Source: Deinococcus radiodurans R1 = ATCC 13939 = DSM 20539 (GTDB lineage: Bacteria > Deinococcota > Deinococci > Deinococcales > Deinococcaceae). Taken from it: a stretch of DNA of 32,000 bases. The DNA is taken from the NCBI RefSeq assembly GCF_000008565.1, contig NC_001263.1, positions 1,137,083 through 1,169,082 on the forward strand, written 5' to 3'. Below are positions 4,595 to 16,735 of the stretch, piece after piece (position 1 is the stretch's first letter; each line of letters starts with the position of its first letter). The notes under the pieces were generated by a model. That model did not search any database and was not told where the DNA came from. It worked only from the letters and a program-made list of their open reading frames with translations. A program made the position numbers and the translations under genes.

Positions 4595-6418
4595 TCAGAT
4601 ATTCCGCACCGCGCCCCGCGAAGCGCTCGTCGTCATAGACGCATAGGCGCGTAGGGCAGCGGTGATTTTGCGGGGCCGGGGTTCGGCGGGGTGCCAGCCT
4701 TCTTCCTCGCGCTTCTGGCGGCGGGCGGCGAGTTCAGCGTCCGGCACGGCGAGGTGAATGGTGCGGTTCGGGATGTCGATTTCGATGAGGTCGCCCGTCT
4801 CGACCAGGCCGATGGTGCCGCCCTCCGCCGCCTCGGGCGAGACGTGGCCGATGCTCAGGCCGCTGCTGCCGCCCGAGAAACGACCGTCGGTGACCAGCGC
4901 GCAGGCTTTGCCCAGCCCCTTGGACTTGAGGTAGCTCGTCGGGTAGAGCATTTCCTGCATGCCGGGGCCACCGCGTGGGCCTTCGTAGCGAATCAGCACG
5001 ACCTCGCCTTCCTTGACTTCGCCGCTGAGGATGGCGTCCACCGAGGCGTCTTGCGACTCGAAAACGCGCGCCGGGCCGCTGAACTTCAGGATGGATTCGT
5101 CCACGCCCGCCGTCTTGACGATGCAGCCGTCTTCGGCGAGGTTGCCGTACAGCACCGCCAGCCCGCCGTCCTGCGAGAAAGCGTGCTCGGCGCTGCGAAT
5201 GACGCCTGCTTCCCGGTCGGTGTCGAGTTCGCGGTAACGGCGCGACTGCGAGAAGGCGAAGACGGTGGGAATGCCGCCGGGCGCGGCGCGGTAGAACTCG
5301 TGGTGGTTCTCATTGCGGACCACGTCCCACTCGTTCAGGGCGGCGCTCATGCTGGGGGCGTGTACGGTGCTCACGTCGGTCTTCAGCAGCCCGGCGCGGT
5401 CAAGCTCGCCCAGAATGCCCATGATGCCCCCAGCGCGGTGCACGTCTTCCATGTGCACGTCGTTCTTGGCGGGCGCCACCTTGCACAGCACCGGCACCCG
5501 CCGCGAGAGCTGGTCGATGTCCTGCATGGTGAAATCCACCCCGGCCTCGTGCGCGGCGGCCAGCAGGTGCAGCACCGTATTGGTCGAGCCGCCCATCGAG
5601 ATGTCGAGGGTCATGGCGTTCTCGAAGGCGTCGTAGGTGGCGACACTGCGCGGCAGCACGCTCTCGTCATCGCCCTCGTAGTAGCGCTTGGCGAGGTCCA
5701 CGATCAGGTGCCCGGCGCGCTTGAACAGGTTCTGGCGGTCGGAGTGGGTCGCCAGCACCGAGCCGTTGCCCGGCAGCGAGAGGCCCAGCGCCTCCGTCAG
5801 GCAGTTCATCGAGTTGGCGGTGAACATGCCCGAGCACGAGCCGCAGGTGGGGCAGGCCGAGCGCTCCACCAGTTCGATGTCTTCCTCGCTCACGCTGTCG
5901 TCGGCGGCCATCACCATTGCGTCCACCAGGTCCAGCGCGTGCTCGCCGTCACCGAGCTTGACCTTGCCCGCTTCCATCGGCCCGCCCGAGACGAACACGG
6001 TGGGGATATTGAGGCGCAGCGCGGCCATCAGCATGCCGGGGGTAATCTTGTCGCAGTTGGAGATGCAAACCATCGCGTCGGCGCAGTGGGCGTTGACCAT
6101 GTACTCCACGCTGTCGGCGATGATTTCGCGGCTGGGCAGTGAGTAGAGCATCCCGTCGTGGCCCATGGCGATGCCGTCGTCCACGGCGATGGTGTTGAAC
6201 TCCTTCGCCACGCCGCCCGCCGCCGCGATTTCACCCGCGACGAGTTGCCCGAGGTCCTTGAGGTGCACGTGCCCCGGCACGAACTGGGTGAACGAGTTGA
6301 CCACCGCGATGATCGGCTTCTGGAAATCGCCGTCGGTCATGCCGGTGGCGCGCCACAGGGCACGGGCGCCGGCCATATTACGGCCCTCGGTGGTGGTTCT
6401 GGAACGGTAAGTCGGCAT
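4595..6418 (-). CDS. ilvD: Dihydroxy-acid dehydratase (long, enterobacterial-type form).
   Basis: A 607-aa ORF reading [29 protein letters not shown]...NCDKITPGM...[17 protein letters not shown]...[19 protein letters not shown]. It is collinear with IlvD along the whole length. Confidence 0.95.
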
Positions 6419-12054: not shown

Positions 12055-13551
<1,497 letters not shown>

Positions 13552-13684: not shown

Positions 13685-13717
13685 AAAAAAGGCCACCCTC
13701 CAGCCCGGAAGGTCGCC
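13685..13717 (-). terminator. Rho-independent terminator of the coiled-coil operon.
   Basis: The minus-strand RNA reads GGCGACCUUCC-GGGCU-GGAGGGUGGCC-UUUUUU (11-bp stem with one mismatch and one G-U pair). It lies 19 nt after the stop at 13736. Confidence 0.65.
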
Positions 13718-13735
13718 CCCTTTGGACTCCTGCGC

Positions 13736-14884
13736 TCAGTTCTTGCCCTTGCCCTGGGCTTTGGCCTGCTCCATCGCCAGTTCCTTGAAGGCGCTGAGGC
13801 TGCTGGCGTTGGCCTGCCCCTCGATGGCCTTGACCGCGAGGTCCTGCATCTGGCGGCTGGCGGCGCTGACCTGCTCGGACAGTTGCTGGGCGCGGACGCT
13901 GAGCAGGTCGAGGCGGGTCTGGGCGCTCTGGATGCGCTGCTCGTAGACGCGGCGCTGGCCTTCGATGTCCTTTTCCTGCAACTCGGTCCGCACGCGGGCC
14001 TGCCGGGTGCCGATGCCGTTGCCCTCGGCTTCGGCGCGCTTGAGGGCGGCTTCGCGCTCGGCGGGCAGGGCGGCGGCGCGCTCGGTGACTTCGCGCCACT
14101 TCTGCTCGCGTTTCGTCAGCTCGGCTTCCAGGCTATTCCACTCGCGCTCCTGGGCGTCAAGCCGCTCGGCGCGGGCGCGGGTCAGTTCGGCCTGCTCGGT
14201 GCGGTAGGTCTCGTCGTCGAGGCGGCGGTCGAGGTCGCGCTGGTAGCTGTAGTCGGCCGTGTCGCGCTCGCGGGCGGTCCGGGCGGCGAGGTCGCGCTCG
14301 GCCGTAGCGCGTTCGCGGGCGTCCTCCTCGTCTTCCCACTCGCGCTGGCGCGCTTCCCATTCCTCGGCGGTGGCCGTCTGCTGCGTTTCGAGCTCGGTGC
14401 GCGAGGCTTCGGCGGCGGCATCGTACTCGGCGAGCAGGTCACGCAGCGCGTGTTCGCCCGCCGTCAGGCCGTAGAGGTCACGCAGCGCCTCGCGTTCGGT
14501 CTGCGCCAGCTTGAGCACACCCTGGAGCCCGGCGGCCTCGGCGCTGAGCTGCTCGGACAGCTCCGCCAGCGTGCCCGACGCCCCGGCCTGAAGCTGGGCG
14601 AGCAGCCCGAGCGCGACGGTCATGCGGCCCGACGCTTCGCCCGGCTCTGTCGGCAGTTCGCGGCTGGCTTCCTGCATCGGGCCTTTGGGGGCGGCCTGCT
14701 GCTGGACCACCTGCTGCTGTGCCACCTGCTTCTGAGCCTCGCGCACTTCCTTGTCTTTCTGGGCGAGCTGGCCCTTGAGGGCGCCGAGCTGACCTTCGAG
14801 CTGGCTGTACTCCTGAATCAGGTCGTCGAAGGCTTCGAGGATTTTGGCCTTGGTGGCGCTGTCGGCGGGGCGTTTGACGCTCAT
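13736..14884 (-). CDS. Coiled-coil protein of unknown function (downstream paralogue).
   Basis: A 382-aa ORF, almost entirely E/R/A/Q/L-rich helix. The ATG overlaps the upstream gene's stop (ATGA at 14881-14884), with AGGAG 7 nt upstream. No catalytic motif. Confidence 0.75.
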   Translation of the reverse strand: MSVKRPADSATKAKILEAFDDLIQEYSQLEGQLGALKGQLAQKDKEVREAQKQVAQQQVVQQQAAPKGPMQEASRELPTEPGEASGRMTVALGLLAQLQAGASGTLAELSEQLSAEAAGLQGVLKLAQTEREALRDLYGLTAGEHALRDLLAEYDAAAEASRTELETQQTATAEEWEARQREWEDEEDARERATAERDLAARTARERDTADYSYQRDLDRRLDDETYRTEQAELTRARAERLDAQEREWNSLEAELTKREQKWREVTERAAALPAEREAALKRAEAEGNGIGTRQARVRTELQEKDIEGQRRVYEQRIQSAQTRLDLLSVRAQQLSEQVSAASRQMQDLAVKAIEGQANASSLSAFKELAMEQAKAQGKGKN

Positions 14885-15863
14885 GCTTCACTCCTGCTGG
14901 TGCTGGCGGTGGTAAAGGCGCGGGTGGCGAGGTTCTGGGTCTGTTCGCTGACGCGCTGCTGCTGGGCCTGCAACTCGGCGACCTGCGCTTCGGCGGCGGC
15001 GACGGCGGCTTGCAGCGAGTCGAGGTGCAGTTCGTAGCTCTGCTTGCTCGCTTCCCAGTCGCGTTCCAGCAGGTCCGAGCGCACTTTGGCGTCGGCATTG
15101 GCCTGCCGGATGCCTTCTTCGCGGGCCTTTTTGACGGCTTCTTCGAGTTCGGCGGGGAACGCCTCCACCTTGATGCGGTCTTGCTCGAACTGCTCGGCGC
15201 CCGCTTGCAGGGCGGCCTCGCGCTCGCGCCAGTCGCGTTCCAGGGTCAGGCGGCGTTCGGCGAGGTCGCGTTCCTGGGCGCGGTCGGCGGCGTGCTGTGC
15301 GTCGGCGTCGTGCTGGCGCTCGCGTCGCGCCGGTAGCTGTGATCGGCTTCCTCCTGCTGGCGCTCACGGGCCGTTTCCTCCTGCTGACGCCTTTCTTCTG
15401 CGGCGAACTCGGCGTCCTCGCGTTCCCAGGCGCGGCGCTCGGCGCTCTGCTCGCGGTTCAGGGCGTCCAGCCGCGCCTGATGCTCGGTCTGGAGCCGGGC
15501 GACGCGTTCACGGCCTTCTTGCTGCAAGGCGGCCAGCGCGTCGGCGGCCACCCGGATGCGCCGCAGCTCGGCCAGTTCGCGCCCGGCGACCTCGCCAGCG
15601 GTCACCAGCTCGGCGAGCTTCGACGTCTCGCCCGAAAGCCGCTCCTCCAGTTGCGCCAGCACCGCGCCGACTTCGAGCTGCACGTCCGCCGACTGCCGCA
15701 CGATGTGGTCCACCGTGTACCCCGCCGCCCGGTCCAGCACCTCGCGGTCCCGCTGGGTGCGCTGCACCTCGGCGCGGCTCTGAAACCTTCCCTGCGCCGC
15801 AGCCTGCTCTTTCCGCACCTCGGCAAACGCCTGCTGTAAAGCCTGAGATTCGTCCTTCGTCAT
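14881..15863 (-). pseudogene. Coiled-coil protein of unknown function (upstream paralogue); frame broken by an apparent 1-nt deletion near 15318-15327.
   Basis: ATG at 15863 preceded by AGGAGA (MTKDESQALQQAF...). After ...EEADHSYRRD the frame yields junk (ASASTTPTHSTPP) and stops at 15246. The frame of ORF 14881..15168 is open upstream to the same point and continues ERQHDADAQHAADRAQERDLAERRLTLERDW..., colinear with the paralogue. Confidence 0.7.
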
Positions 15864-15891
15864 AGCTTCTCCTTTAAAACCCGCTTTGTTT

Positions 15892-15908
15892 TTACGCTTA
15901 AAACATAA
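15892..15908 (-). promoter_or_regulatory. RDRM-like 17-bp palindrome (candidate DdrO operator).
   Basis: The gene-strand sequence is TTATGTTTTAAGCGTAA. Six of the 8 arm positions are self-complementary, with TTAYGY / RCRTAA-type half sites. It lies 28 nt upstream of the ATG at 15863. Confidence 0.6.
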
Positions 15909-15931
15909 CACGGCGGGAGGACTTTGTGCAA
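15902..15931 (-). promoter_or_regulatory. Candidate sigma70-type promoter overlapping the RDRM.
   Basis: On the gene strand, TTGCAC (15926-15931) is followed by an 18-nt spacer and then TATGTT (15902-15907). The -10 element lies inside the palindrome. Confidence 0.35.
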
Positions 15932-15991
15932 GTGGACACACTGGGCTGTGACTCACGGTTGGGCTGAAGTGCTGGCGCTTCTGGGCAGAGT

Positions 15992-16735
15992 TCAGGTGAC
16001 CGGCGGATAGGCAATCGGATTTTGTGCGTTCCTGGCGAAAGAGGCCGTCACCGAGTGATAGAGATAGCGGTTCCTCACCTCTTCCGGGGCAACGTGTCCG
16101 ACAAATTCCCAGCGCTGCGGGTCGTTGACCGCTTCGGCGAGTCGGGTCTGATAGGGAGTTTGGCCCGCCGGGTGCCAGGACTCGATGGTGTACACCTCAC
16201 GCACGACTCCTTCAAAGACGGCCAGCGCGTATTTGACTTCCTGCTGGCGCCACTTCGCCACCTTCCAGACGCCCCGCGTCGCCTCGTACAGCTCCTGCGC
16301 GGGCATCCCGTGCCAGTAGAGCCGATTGCTGCGGATAAGCATCACTGGGTCGGTGATCACGGCGGGCGGCGCGGCGTAGTAAGTGACGAGTTCTTCAAGC
16401 GACCTGCGTCCAGAGCGCACACTTTGCCAGCCCCTCACCAGATTGGACAGCGAATCCAGTCCCAGCAGATCAATGGCCGCCGCCTCGATTCGGTAGGCCG
16501 TGGCTTCGTCGGGCAGTCCGTGGGCCAGGATGTCGAGCCTCGGTGACAATTGCGCCTGTCGGAGTTCAGCCAGAATCTGCGCCTTGCGTGACTCGCCCTC
16601 CGCCGATAAATGCGAAAGAACACGCTGGCCCTGGCCTTTGCCGACATAGAAGACCTGTTCCGTCCTGGGGTCTACGTACAGATAAACGTAATACCCCAGG
16701 TGCTGAGCGACTTCCGGCGGGATGCTGGGGGTCAC
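15992..16735 (-). CDS. GIY-YIG nuclease-domain protein with an uncharacterised C-terminal domain.
   Basis: GYYVYLYVDPRTEQVFYVGKGQGQRVLSH...YRIEAAAIDLL fits the GIY-YIG pattern. The GTG start is 7 nt after the lepA stop. Codon usage is visibly less GC3-biased than in the neighbouring genes. Confidence 0.7.
   Translation of the reverse strand: MTPSIPPEVAQHLGYYVYLYVDPRTEQVFYVGKGQGQRVLSHLSAEGESRKAQILAELRQAQLSPRLDILAHGLPDEATAYRIEAAAIDLLGLDSLSNLVRGWQSVRSGRRSLEELVTYYAAPPAVITDPVMLIRSNRLYWHGMPAQELYEATRGVWKVAKWRQQEVKYALAVFEGVVREVYTIESWHPAGQTPYQTRLAEAVNDPQRWEFVGHVAPEEVRNRYLYHSVTASFARNAQNPIAYPPVT

What the first reader, a model, noticed from the sequence alone, without database searches (positions are those of the whole stretch)
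13685..15931. RDRM-like (DdrO operator) palindrome on the promoter of a two-gene coiled-coil operon of unknown function
On the gene strand, 28 nt upstream of the ATG at 15863, lies TTATGTTTTAAGCGTAA (15892-15908).
- It is a 17-mer with 6 of 8 arm positions self-complementary.
- It has the TTAYGY...RCRTAA half-site layout I recall for the Deinococcus radiation/desiccation response motif. DdrO represses that motif and is removed by the IrrE/PprI protease after DNA damage.
- It overlaps a -10-like TATGTT placed 18 nt after TTGCAC, and is followed by AGGAGA-N4-ATG.
- It is one of very few AT-rich words in the window.

The transcription unit is compact. It has two coiled-coil genes joined by an ATGA overlap with an internal AGGAG, and ends in a good terminator (13685-13717). 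Neither product shows any enzymatic, DNA-binding or membrane motif that I can recognise. This looks like a damage-inducible module whose biochemical role is open.

Unverified recollection: published RDRM regulon lists include uncharacterised hypothetical genes. I cannot confirm from here that this locus is one of them.
Basis: partly seen in the sequence, partly recalled or inferred. Interest (0 to 1): 0.8.

Follow-up and report, generated by a model that had tools for sequence, protein, structure and literature searches.

The report
Known DdrO operator on ZicK/ZacK-like operon
The palindrome is the already published DdrO repressor site in front of the Deinococcus radiodurans genes DR1143-DR1142; the one new point is that these two "hypothetical" genes are clear relatives of ZicK and ZacK, a cyanobacterial protein pair that builds filaments only when both are present.

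Summary
TTATGTTTTAAGCGTAA lies at 15908..15892 on the minus strand, 28 nt before the ATG at 15863. It fits the RDRM consensus with no mismatch. A matrix built from 25 other validated sites scores it at 25.1 bits, against 9.0 for the next best site in the window.

The site is conserved at the same position in four other Deinococcus species. It is not new. The window is D. radiodurans R1 chromosome 1, and this exact site is the published RDRM of DR1143 (Makarova 2007). [quoted passage not shown] DRO_1140 rose 42-fold and DRO_1139 26-fold on DdrO depletion (2026 paper).

One correction: in this window gene 1 is broken by a missing G near 15324. Other D. radiodurans assemblies encode an intact 327-aa protein, so this is probably a sequencing error.

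New here: DR1143 and DR1142 are full-length homologues of ZicK and ZacK of Anabaena (37% and 33% identity, same gene order). ZicK and ZacK form an obligate heteropolymer resembling intermediate filaments. I found no paper that makes this link.

The regulation is already known. The role of the proteins remains an inference.

The parts
15892..15908 (-). RDRM, the DdrO operator: TTATGTTTTAAGCGTAA
   Evidence: Sequence. Only zero-mismatch consensus hit in the window. Scores 25.1 bits against 9.0 for the next best site. Published as the DR1143 RDRM. Conserved in 4 orthologous promoters.
15902..15907 (-). -10-like hexamer TATGTT inside the left half-site (TACGCT in three other species)
   Evidence: Its position is inferred; the transcription start was not mapped here.
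15925..15940 (-). Conserved upstream block TGTGTCCACTTGCACA. It contains the -35-like TTGCAC (15931..15926) and also resembles a CRP/DdrI site, TGTGA-N6-TCACA.
   Evidence: TGTG and CTTGCACAAA are invariant in 5 Deinococcus promoters. It is the only match with up to 2 mismatches to the CRP consensus in the window, but 5.7 such matches are expected by chance.
15868..15873 (-). Shine-Dalgarno AGGAGA, 4 nt before the ATG of gene 1
   Evidence: GGAG is kept in the orthologues.
14881..15863 (-). Gene 1, DR1143, a ZicK homologue. It is 327 aa when intact. Here a 1-nt deletion near 15324 interrupts it: the frame from 15863 stops at 15246, and the rest is in another frame ending at 14881.
   Evidence: ORFs. 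A single missing G is the only difference over 4 kb from CP150840.1. The intact 327-aa form is on 176 contigs; the 205-aa form is on only the 2,648,638-bp contig. 37% identity over the full length, without gaps, to WP_015137204.1, the listed ZicK homologue.
14891..14895 (-). Internal AGGAG, 6 nt before the ATG of gene 2, followed by the ATGA stop/start overlap (14884..14881)
   Evidence: The 4-nt overlap is conserved in 4 other Deinococcus species and in metagenome locus L011.
13736..14884 (-). Gene 2, DR1142, a ZacK homologue, 382 aa
   Evidence: 100% identical to the D. radiodurans protein P0001. 33% identity over the full length to WP_015137203.1, the listed ZacK homologue, E 1e-63. Paralogue of gene 1.
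13685..13723 (-). Intrinsic terminator: an A-tract, a GC-rich hairpin and a U6 run. Possibly bidirectional, facing the convergent alpha-amylase gene.

Best explanation
**Shown, by sequence here plus published experiments.** The 17-bp palindrome is the DdrO operator (RDRM) of the D. radiodurans DR1143-DR1142 transcription unit. A DdrO dimer bound there covers the -10 region and keeps the promoter shut. After DNA damage the metalloprotease IrrE/PprI cleaves DdrO, and both genes are strongly induced.

**Inferred from anatomy.**
- The two genes form one bicistronic unit.
- It has its own ribosome-binding sites and an ATGA stop/start overlap, which would couple translation and give matched amounts of the two proteins.
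- It ends at an intrinsic terminator.

**Shown here.**
- The two proteins are ancient paralogues.
- They are full-length homologues of cyanobacterial ZicK (gene 1) and ZacK (gene 2), with the same gene order.
- They are acidic, lack cysteine, and are almost entirely alpha-helical rods with no membrane segment.

**Inferred by homology.** Like ZicK and ZacK, they co-assemble into a nucleotide-independent heteropolymeric filament of the intermediate-filament type. On this reading the DdrO regulon switches on a structural scaffold rather than an enzyme. My best guess is that it organises the nucleoid or the division site during recovery.

**Frameshift.** The break in gene 1 in this window is most likely an error of the original 1999 assembly.

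**Confidence by tier.**

| Claim | Confidence |
|---|---|
| DdrO operator and regulation | about 0.97 |
| ZicK/ZacK homology | about 0.95 |
| Heteropolymer formation in Deinococcus | about 0.55 |
| Nucleoid or division role | about 0.3 |
For: **Regulation**
- Exact consensus match and 25.1-bit score.
- The same site lies 27-28 nt before the ATG in D. hopiensis, D. arcticus, D. aquaedulcis and D. sp. HMF7604. The spacer around it varies.
- In two more divergent pairs, the best-scoring site of the whole locus also sits just upstream of gene A: 18.1 and 17.0 bits.
- Published evidence: Makarova 2007; Eugénie 2021 Table 2; Wang 2015, in which 21 of 24 RDRM promoters bind DdrO and the three non-binders had lower scores; 41.7-fold and 26.3-fold induction of DRO_1140 and DRO_1139 on DdrO depletion.

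**Operon**
- ATGA overlap, AGGAG and terminator.
- Overlap conserved in other species.

**Identity of the window**
-.

**Homology**
- DR1143 against P0089, E 2e-50. Pairwise: 37% identity, 319 columns, no gaps, E 4e-62.
- P0089 is WP_015137204.1, listed as the ZicK homologue of Nostoc PCC 7524.
- Its downstream neighbour is WP_015137203.1, listed as the ZacK homologue. DR1142 aligns to it over the full length, E 1e-63.
- ZicK is 327 aa and ZacK 359 aa in Anabaena. The Deinococcus proteins are 327 and 382 aa.
- An A-type gene lies directly upstream of a B-type gene in 77 of 80 cyanobacterial loci, and also in Enhygromyxa and Leptothoe.
- The A and B families are related at hhalign probability 100%, E 1e-59.

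**Rod-like shape**
- AlphaFold2 helices 51-324 in the DR1143 type and 146-356 in DR1142.
- No transmembrane segment; pI about 5.

**ZicK/ZacK properties**
-.
Against: - Nothing here shows that DR1143 and DR1142 interact or polymerise.
- Identity to ZicK and ZacK is only 33-37%.
- The ZicK/ZacK filament data come from one study that used renatured protein and over-expression. That study did not detect a common transcript in Anabaena.
- ZicK/ZacK partners such as SepJ and SepI belong to filamentous cyanobacteria, so the cellular role cannot simply be transferred to a coccus.
- No deletion phenotype for DR1143 or DR1142 was found in the library.
- One of two irradiation transcriptome studies did not list DR1143 as induced: Tanaka 'no', Liu 'yes'.
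- The -35-like hexamer is weak and the generic scan calls no promoter. The transcription start is unmapped here.
- Both AlphaFold2 models have pTM 0.32, so only the secondary structure can be trusted.
Confidence: 0.8

Rival explanations
1. The promoter has two controls. The invariant block TGTG(T/A)-N6-GCACA, which contains the reader's '-35' TTGCAC, is a binding site for a CRP-family activator such as DdrI. It would act from roughly the class II position, with DdrO repressing at the -10 region. This adds to the DdrO model rather than replacing it.
For: The block reads TGTGA-N6-GCACA in four species, 9 of 10 positions matching TGTGA-N6-TCACA. It is invariant while the neighbouring spacer varies. 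DdrI binds the classical CRP consensus, and cross-talk with the RDR regulon has been proposed. TTGCAC is a poor -35, as is usual for activator-dependent promoters.
Against: In D. radiodurans the match has 2 mismatches, and 5.7 such matches are expected by chance in the window. Conservation could equally reflect an ordinary -35/UP region. No publication found here lists DR1143 as a DdrI target. The transcription start is unknown, so the spacing is approximate.
Confidence: 0.25
2. The proteins act directly on DNA as coiled-coil repair factors that tether or bridge breaks, in the manner of SMC, Rad50/SbcC or RecN, rather than as a cytoskeletal polymer.
For: They belong to a regulon dominated by DNA repair genes. 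Automated names on homologues include 'SbcCD ATPase subunit' and 'Chromosome partition protein Smc'. The ZicK/ZacK paper reports predicted SMC domains, an interaction with ParA and an altered DAPI distribution in the mutant.
Against: No ATPase head, Walker motif or DNA-binding domain was found: no Pfam, NCBIfam or PDB hit. The proteins are acidic, pI about 5. They are 327-382 aa, far shorter than SMC-type proteins. The RecN hit in the profile search has E 0.18, the level of generic coiled-coil noise.
Confidence: 0.1
3. The proteins act at the cell envelope, as the database labels 'protein transporter' and 'colicin import membrane protein' (TolA-like) suggest, or as a membrane-stress scaffold.
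For: These labels occur on DR_1142 and on homologues. DdrO depletion causes membrane vesicle formation, which that paper attributes to decreased CwlA rather than to these genes. ZicK and ZacK interact with septal and elongasome proteins in bacterial two-hybrid (BACTH) assays.
Against: No hydrophobic segment: the highest 19-residue Kyte-Doolittle means are 0.78 and 1.15. No signal peptide is evident and there is no TolA or other Pfam match. The labels are automatic and are typical of low-complexity, charged coiled coils.
Confidence: 0.07
4. The palindrome is a chance AT-rich word or a plain promoter element with no repressor function.
For: With one mismatch allowed, the loose consensus is not rare: 2 found, 1.6 expected.
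Against: It scores 25.1 bits, against a maximum of 20.5 in 100 shuffles and 9.0 for the next best site in the window. It is conserved with half-site changes that still fit the consensus in 4 species. ChIP-seq, EMSA and depletion data are published.
Confidence: 0.01

Closest known systems
Published RDRM/DdrO operators of the D. radiodurans radiation/desiccation response regulon (ddrB, ddrF, ddrC, ssb, gyrA and others), including the DR1143 site itself
   Same: Same 17-bp palindrome class. The score is in the upper third of validated sites. The site lies near the -10 region and close to the start codon. It has the same repressor and protease logic (DdrO cleaved by IrrE/PprI). The site is literally the one listed for DR1143.
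   Different: Nothing differs in the operator. The regulated genes encode structural coiled-coil proteins rather than repair enzymes or DNA-binding proteins. The pair is absent from D. geothermalis, so it is not part of the core regulon.
ZicK (Alr4504) and ZacK (Alr4505) of Anabaena sp. PCC 7120, heteropolymer-forming coiled-coil-rich proteins (Springstein et al., bioRxiv 10.1101/553073)
   Same: Full-length collinear homology: 37% and 33% identity to the Nostoc PCC 7524 members. Lengths match at 327 aa for the first protein. The gene order is the same. Both are cytoplasmic and all-helical.
   Different: In Deinococcus the genes overlap by 4 nt and sit under a DNA-damage repressor. In cyanobacteria they are 30-540 nt apart, next to a two-component system, and were reported as not co-transcribed. 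DR1142 has an extra low-complexity linker at residues 64-86. Polymerisation and partners are untested in Deinococcus, which is a coccus without trichomes.
Bacterial proteins resembling intermediate filaments (crescentin, FilP, Scy)
   Same: Long coiled-coil rods. For the cyanobacterial relatives, assembly is independent of nucleotides.
   Different: No detectable sequence or fold relationship: Foldseek gave only vimentin at E 8.7. Those proteins polymerise alone, whereas ZicK and ZacK need each other.
LexA/SOS-controlled damage-inducible non-enzymatic effectors, such as the division inhibitors SulA and YneA
   Same: A repressor inactivated after DNA damage releases a small structural or regulatory module that is not a repair enzyme. 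This is an analogy from general knowledge only.
   Different: The repressor system differs: DdrO is cut by a separate protease rather than cleaving itself. The proteins are unrelated. No effect on division is shown.

Membership tests
RDRM / DdrO operator (RDR regulon) | 17-bp palindrome fitting TTMYGYNNNNNRCRKAA | tested here: met
   Zero mismatches; the only such site in 32 kb.
RDRM / DdrO operator (RDR regulon) | Matrix score within the range of experimentally supported sites and above genomic background | tested here: met
   25.1 bits. The 25 other sites range from 12.6 to 27.6. Next best in the window 9.0; best shuffle 20.5.
RDRM / DdrO operator (RDR regulon) | Located in the promoter region, close to or overlapping the -35/-10 elements | tested here: inconclusive
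   The site lies 28 nt before the ATG and contains a -10-like TATGTT, 18 nt after a conserved TTGCAC. The generic scan calls no promoter, and no transcription start was mapped here.
RDRM / DdrO operator (RDR regulon) | Motif conserved in orthologous promoters of other Deinococcus species | tested here: met
   4 of 4 orthologous promoters score 21.6-25.1 bits at the same distance. Two divergent pairs score 17.0 and 18.1 bits.
RDRM / DdrO operator (RDR regulon) | DdrO binds the site in vitro and in vivo | not testable with these tools
   Published. DR1143 is in Table 2 of Eugénie 2021, which requires a ChIP-seq peak and also codes earlier EMSA evidence. Wang 2015 found that 21 of 24 RDRM promoters bind DdrO.
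RDRM / DdrO operator (RDR regulon) | Induction that depends on DdrO and IrrE after damage | not testable with these tools
   Published. 41.7-fold and 26.3-fold induction on DdrO depletion. Irradiation transcriptome and irrE-mutant evidence are coded in Table 2. Liu 'yes', Tanaka 'no'.
ZicK/ZacK heteropolymer-forming coiled-coil-rich protein pair | Sequence homology of each partner to the matching family, over the full length | tested here: met
   DR1143 against WP_015137204.1 (ZicK family): 37% identity, E 4e-62. DR1142 against WP_015137203.1 (ZacK family): 33% identity, E 1e-63. Each scores clearly higher against its own type than against the other type.
ZicK/ZacK heteropolymer-forming coiled-coil-rich protein pair | Adjacent genes, zicK-type upstream of zacK-type | tested here: met
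   Seen in the window, in 6 other Deinococcus or related loci, in 77 of 80 cyanobacterial loci, and in Enhygromyxa.
ZicK/ZacK heteropolymer-forming coiled-coil-rich protein pair | Cytoplasmic, coiled-coil-rich, no transmembrane segment | tested here: met
   AlphaFold2 models are almost entirely helical, with single helices of 210-274 residues. No hydrophobic segment. NCBI names the proteins 'coiled-coil domain-containing protein'.
ZicK/ZacK heteropolymer-forming coiled-coil-rich protein pair | The two proteins depend on each other to polymerise into filaments, without nucleotide | not testable with these tools
   Shown only for the Anabaena proteins.
SMC / Rad50 / RecN-type coiled-coil DNA repair ATPases | ABC-type ATPase head (Walker A/B, signature motif) flanking the coiled coil | tested here: not met
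   No Pfam, NCBIfam or PDB match. The best PDB profile hit, RecN, has E 0.18.
TolA-like 'colicin import membrane protein' / 'protein transporter' (database labels) | N-terminal membrane anchor and a TolA domain | tested here: not met
   The highest 19-residue hydropathy means are 0.78 and 1.15. No Pfam hit.

The most novel reading that the evidence does not exclude
The Deinococcus radiation/desiccation regulon includes a damage-inducible cytoskeleton. On this reading DR1143 and DR1142 form a ZicK/ZacK-type obligate heteropolymer that is made only after DdrO is cleaved. It would hold or reposition the nucleoid or the septum while the genome is rebuilt. More broadly, ZicK and ZacK would not be a cyanobacterial speciality. 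They would be two branches of a large family of bacterial filament proteins with no Pfam entry: about 975 clusters at 50% identity with E <= 1e-30. That family is also present in Myxococcota, Planctomycetota and many uncultured lineages, often as a single gene.
Probability: 0.35. Interest if true: 0.6.

Novelty: already known. Interest (0 to 1): 0.3.

Why it matters
As a regulatory finding it adds nothing. The site, DdrO binding to it, and the induction of both genes are in the literature from 2007 to 2026.

The useful residue is an annotation.
- DRO_1140 and DRO_1139 rank 9th and 13th among the genes most induced by DdrO depletion (42-fold and 26-fold). They have stayed 'hypothetical' for 25 years.
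- Recognising them as ZicK and ZacK homologues turns 'function unknown' into a concrete hypothesis that is cheap to test: co-polymerisation, localisation, and a double knockout.
- It also suggests that the response includes a structural scaffold as well as repair enzymes.
- It shows that the ZicK/ZacK family extends well beyond cyanobacteria.
- The 'frameshift' long attached to DR1143 is very probably an error in the 1999 sequence.

Tried and rejected
- **Family libraries.** Pfam, NCBIfam and PADLOC scans of both proteins found nothing meaningful. Pfam on ten diverse family members gave only sub-threshold coiled-coil noise such as ATG16.
- **Solved structures.** PDB searches with the single sequence and with the profile gave only generic coiled-coil hits at E >= 0.1.
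- **Fold search.** Foldseek of the DR1142 model against PDB returned one meaningless hit, vimentin at E 8.7. I did not spend further fold searches because both models are single long helices with pTM 0.32.
- **RNA genes.** Rfam and tRNA scans of the window found nothing.
- **Genome scan.** It therefore gave no census of Deinococcus species. The Deinococcus loci came from exact-protein look-ups instead.
- **CRP-like site.** It is conserved but not statistically distinguishable from chance within the window, so I kept it as a lead only.
- **Blanchard 2017.** The main text does not mention DR1143. I could not check its supplement. I rely on the 'X' mark in the Eugénie 2021 table for the statement that the gene was previously predicted.
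- **Heterodimer model.** I considered predicting a fused or heterodimeric structure.
Full report

Yes. On the minus strand the window reads ...CACTTGCACAAAGTCCTCCCGCCGTGTTATGTTTTAAGCGTAAAAACAAAGCGGGTTTTAAAGGAGAAGCTATG.

- The 17-mer TTATGTTTTAAGCGTAA is at 15908..15892, and 28 nt lie between it and the ATG at 15863.
- The arms are complementary at 6 of 8 positions.
- TTGCAC (15931..15926) is followed by 18 nt and then TATGTT (15907..15902).
- AGGAGA is followed by 4 nt and then the ATG.
- The strict consensus TTMYGYNNNNNRCRKAA is matched without mismatch only here in 32 kb.

I built a symmetrised weight matrix from the 25 other RDRMs listed in Table 2 of Eugénie et al. 2021, leaving this site out.

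- This site scores 25.1 bits, which would rank 6th of 26.
- The next best position in the window scores 9.0.
- The best of 100 shuffled windows reached 20.5.

The terminator is real as a structure. An A-tract, a GC-rich hairpin and a U6 run span 13723..13685, folding at -31.8 kcal/mol with z = -2.8. The AGGAG and the ATGA overlap at 14895..14881 are as described.

**2.

In this window gene 1 is not a single open frame. The frame that starts at 15863 stops at 15246. The frame that ends in the ATGA overlap is a different one.

I aligned 4 kb of the window with another D. radiodurans assembly (CP150840.1, 2,650,014 bp). There is exactly one difference: a G missing in the window near 15324 (CGCGACGCGAGCG against CGCGAGCGCGAGCG). 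The other assembly encodes an intact 327-aa protein.

In the protein collection the intact 327-aa form is seen on 176 contigs. The 205-aa form is seen only on a contig of 2,648,638 bp. From my own knowledge, not tested here, that is the length of chromosome 1 in the original 1999 R1 assembly. Makarova 2007 already noted 'Similar to DR1142, but with a frameshift'. A sequencing error is the simplest reading.

**3. Where the window comes from, and what is already known**

Gene 2 is 100% identical to a D. radiodurans protein found on the 2.65-Mb chromosome. The window is therefore D. radiodurans chromosome 1, and the genes are DR1143 and DR1142.

The literature settles the regulatory question.

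- Makarova et al. 2007 list 'DR1143 ... 4.78 TTATGTTtTaAgCgTAA' among the RDRM sites. They record no D. geothermalis orthologue, induction in the Liu data set, and no induction in the Tanaka data set.
- Eugénie et al. 2021 list DR1143/DRO_1140 with GTTATGTTTTAAGCGTAAA at -47. It is among the genes meeting all three criteria: ChIP-seq, RNA-seq on DdrO depletion, and motif. It carries prior-evidence codes 1, 2, 3 and 5: prediction, EMSA, irradiation transcriptome, and irrE mutant.
- Wang et al. 2015 report that 21 of 24 RDRM promoters bind DdrO and that the three non-binders had lower scores.
- A 2026 paper lists DRO_1140 at 41.7-fold and DRO_1139 at 26.3-fold among the 50 most induced genes after 16 h of DdrO depletion. 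This also supports co-expression of the two genes.

**4. Conservation**

Exact-protein look-ups gave the orthologous loci of D. sp. HMF7604, D. arcticus, D. aquaedulcis and D. hopiensis.

- In all four a 321-325-aa gene overlaps a 378-380-aa gene by 4 nt, directly downstream of lepA.
- All four promoters carry a zero-mismatch RDRM 27-28 nt before the ATG.
- Three of them read TTACGC...RCGTAA instead of TTATGT...GCGTAA, which still fits the consensus. They score 21.6-25.1 bits, each far above any other position in its locus.
- The alignment is a classic footprint. The blocks GTGTG, CTTGCACAAA and TGTTAYGYT..A.CGTAA are conserved, while the 12-13 nt between them vary.

Two more distant pairs also have their best matrix hit just upstream of the first gene.

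| Locus | Source | Score | Site |
|---|---|---|---|
| L011 | metagenome, 66% GC | 18.1 bits | TTATGTTTACAGCTAAA, overlapping a TTGACA-17-TATTAT promoter |
| L093 | Deinococcus sp. Arct2-2 | 17.0 bits | TTTAGGATATAACATAA |

**5. What the proteins are**

Neither protein matches any Pfam, NCBIfam or PADLOC model or any solved structure.

- They are paralogues. Pairwise identity is 32% over 260 residues. The family profiles align at hhalign probability 100%, E 1e-59, over 323 columns.
- AlphaFold2 predicts rods. The DR1143 type has helices 3-24, 30-48 and 51-324 (mean pLDDT 84). DR1142 has helices 12-63, 87-138 and 146-356, with a disordered linker at 64-86 (mean pLDDT 80). Both have pTM 0.32, so only the secondary structure is informative.
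- They are acidic (pI about 5) and rich in Ala, Glu, Arg and Gln. They have no Cys and no hydrophobic segment.

The family is large. A profile search finds 975 representatives at 50% identity with E <= 1e-30.

The genome scan returned 80 cyanobacterial loci. In 77 of them an A-type (DR1143-like) gene lies immediately upstream of a B-type (DR1142-like) gene. The other three are cut by contig ends or interrupted. The pair also occurs in Leptothoe and in the myxobacterium Enhygromyxa. A single-gene version of about 342 aa occurs elsewhere.

**6. The link to ZicK and ZacK**

The chain of evidence is as follows.

1. One A-type hit, P0089, is WP_015137204.1 of Nostoc sp. PCC 7524.
2. Supplementary File 2 of Springstein et al. 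(bioRxiv 10.1101/553073) lists that accession as the ZicK homologue and WP_015137203.1 as the ZacK homologue of that strain.
3. The gene downstream of P0089 encodes exactly WP_015137203.1.
4. DR1143 aligns with the ZicK homologue over 319 columns without a gap (37% identity, E 4e-62). DR1142 aligns with the ZacK homologue end to end (33% identity, E 1e-63).
5. In Anabaena PCC 7120 ZicK is 327 aa and ZacK is 359 aa, and the genes are adjacent on the same strand.

According to that paper:

- ZicK and ZacK are cytoplasmic coiled-coil-rich proteins.
- They polymerise only together, without nucleotide, both in vitro and in vivo.
- They interact with MreB, SepJ, SepI and ParA.
- The double mutant has zigzag trichomes and a more condensed DAPI signal.

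The paper does not mention Deinococcus. No paper in the library contains ZicK or ZacK together with Deinococcus in this sense. The few papers that mention DR1143 or DR1142 assign no function.

**7. Most likely mechanism**

*Shown.* DdrO binds the palindrome and represses the promoter. Loss of DdrO induces both genes.

*Inferred.*
- The operator overlaps the -10 hexamer, so DdrO blocks RNA polymerase.
- One transcript runs from just downstream of 15902 to the terminator at 13685.
- The ATGA overlap couples translation, which suits two proteins needed in matched amounts.

*Inferred by homology, unproven.* The products co-assemble into a heteropolymeric filament resembling an intermediate filament, which acts as a scaffold during recovery. 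The nucleoid or the division site is my best guess for its target, given the ParA and DAPI observations and the septal partners in Anabaena.

**8. Rivals**

- A CRP-type activator site overlapping the '-35' is an interesting addition. TGTGA-N6-GCACA is invariant in four species, and DdrI binds TGTGA-N6-TCACA. It is not statistically supported within the window.
- A direct DNA-tethering role of the SMC/Rad50 kind lacks any ATPase or DNA-binding signature.
- The 'protein transporter' and TolA-like labels have no support in the sequence.
- Chance is excluded.

**9. Verdict**

The finding is correct and was well read from raw sequence. The operator and its regulon membership are already published, so novelty is 'already known' and interest is low.

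- the ZicK/ZacK homology, which gives a testable functional hypothesis;
- the evidence that the DR1143 frameshift is an assembly error;
- the phylogenetic footprint of the promoter.

Noticed in passing
window 15992-16735 (minus strand): The 247-aa gene just upstream of the operon is a GIY-YIG protein. It matches the PADLOC anti-phage model PD-T4-3 (E 2e-44) and Pfam LEM-3_GIY-YIG. It sits between lepA and DR1143 only in D. radiodurans. In four other Deinococcus species lepA is followed directly by the pair, so it looks like an inserted defence gene.
   Followed up: partly
window 15925-15940: TGTGTCCACTTGCACA resembles the CRP/DdrI consensus TGTGA-N6-TCACA and includes the '-35' TTGCAC. It reads TGTGA-N6-GCACA, and the block is invariant, in four other Deinococcus promoters. 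By count in the window alone it is not significant: 1 found, 5.7 expected with up to 2 mismatches.
   Followed up: partly
window about 15324: A single G is missing relative to assembly CP150840.1. This is the only difference in 4 kb and it causes the DR1143 'frameshift'. The truncated 205-aa product is on record only for one contig of 2,648,638 bp. The intact 327-aa form is on 176 contigs.
   Followed up: yes
L093 3963-3979 and 4001-6270 (Deinococcus sp. Arct2-2; the same A-type protein cluster includes D. puniceus and D. oregonensis): This is a second, divergent ZicK/ZacK-like pair of 319 + 368 aa. The genes are 203 nt apart and lie next to gcvT-gcvH-gcvP rather than lepA. Only a partial RDRM is present (TTTAGGATATAACATAA, 17.0 bits), 21 nt before the ATG.
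   Followed up: partly
Upstream regions of the A-type gene in Nostocales loci, e.g. L092 about 5920-5945: An inverted repeat, CTACCCTGATGTCTGCATAGGGTAG, or a close variant of it, lies about 65-80 nt before the zicK-type ATG in 22-28 of 33 loci. It could be a leader hairpin or an operator. It is unexplained, and the conservation may simply reflect close relatedness.
   Followed up: no
L010 6001-7029 and the profile search: The family reaches far beyond Deinococcus and cyanobacteria. There are about 975 clusters at 50% identity with E <= 1e-30 and no Pfam model. Many members are single genes of about 342 aa in uncultured lineages, and one cluster is named Planctomycetota. The A and B types look like an old duplication of this single-gene form.
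   Followed up: partly
window 13685-13723: The terminator has an A-tract before the hairpin and a U-tract after it. It lies between the convergent DR1142 and alpha-amylase (12055-13551, plus strand) genes, so it may terminate transcription in both directions.
   Followed up: no
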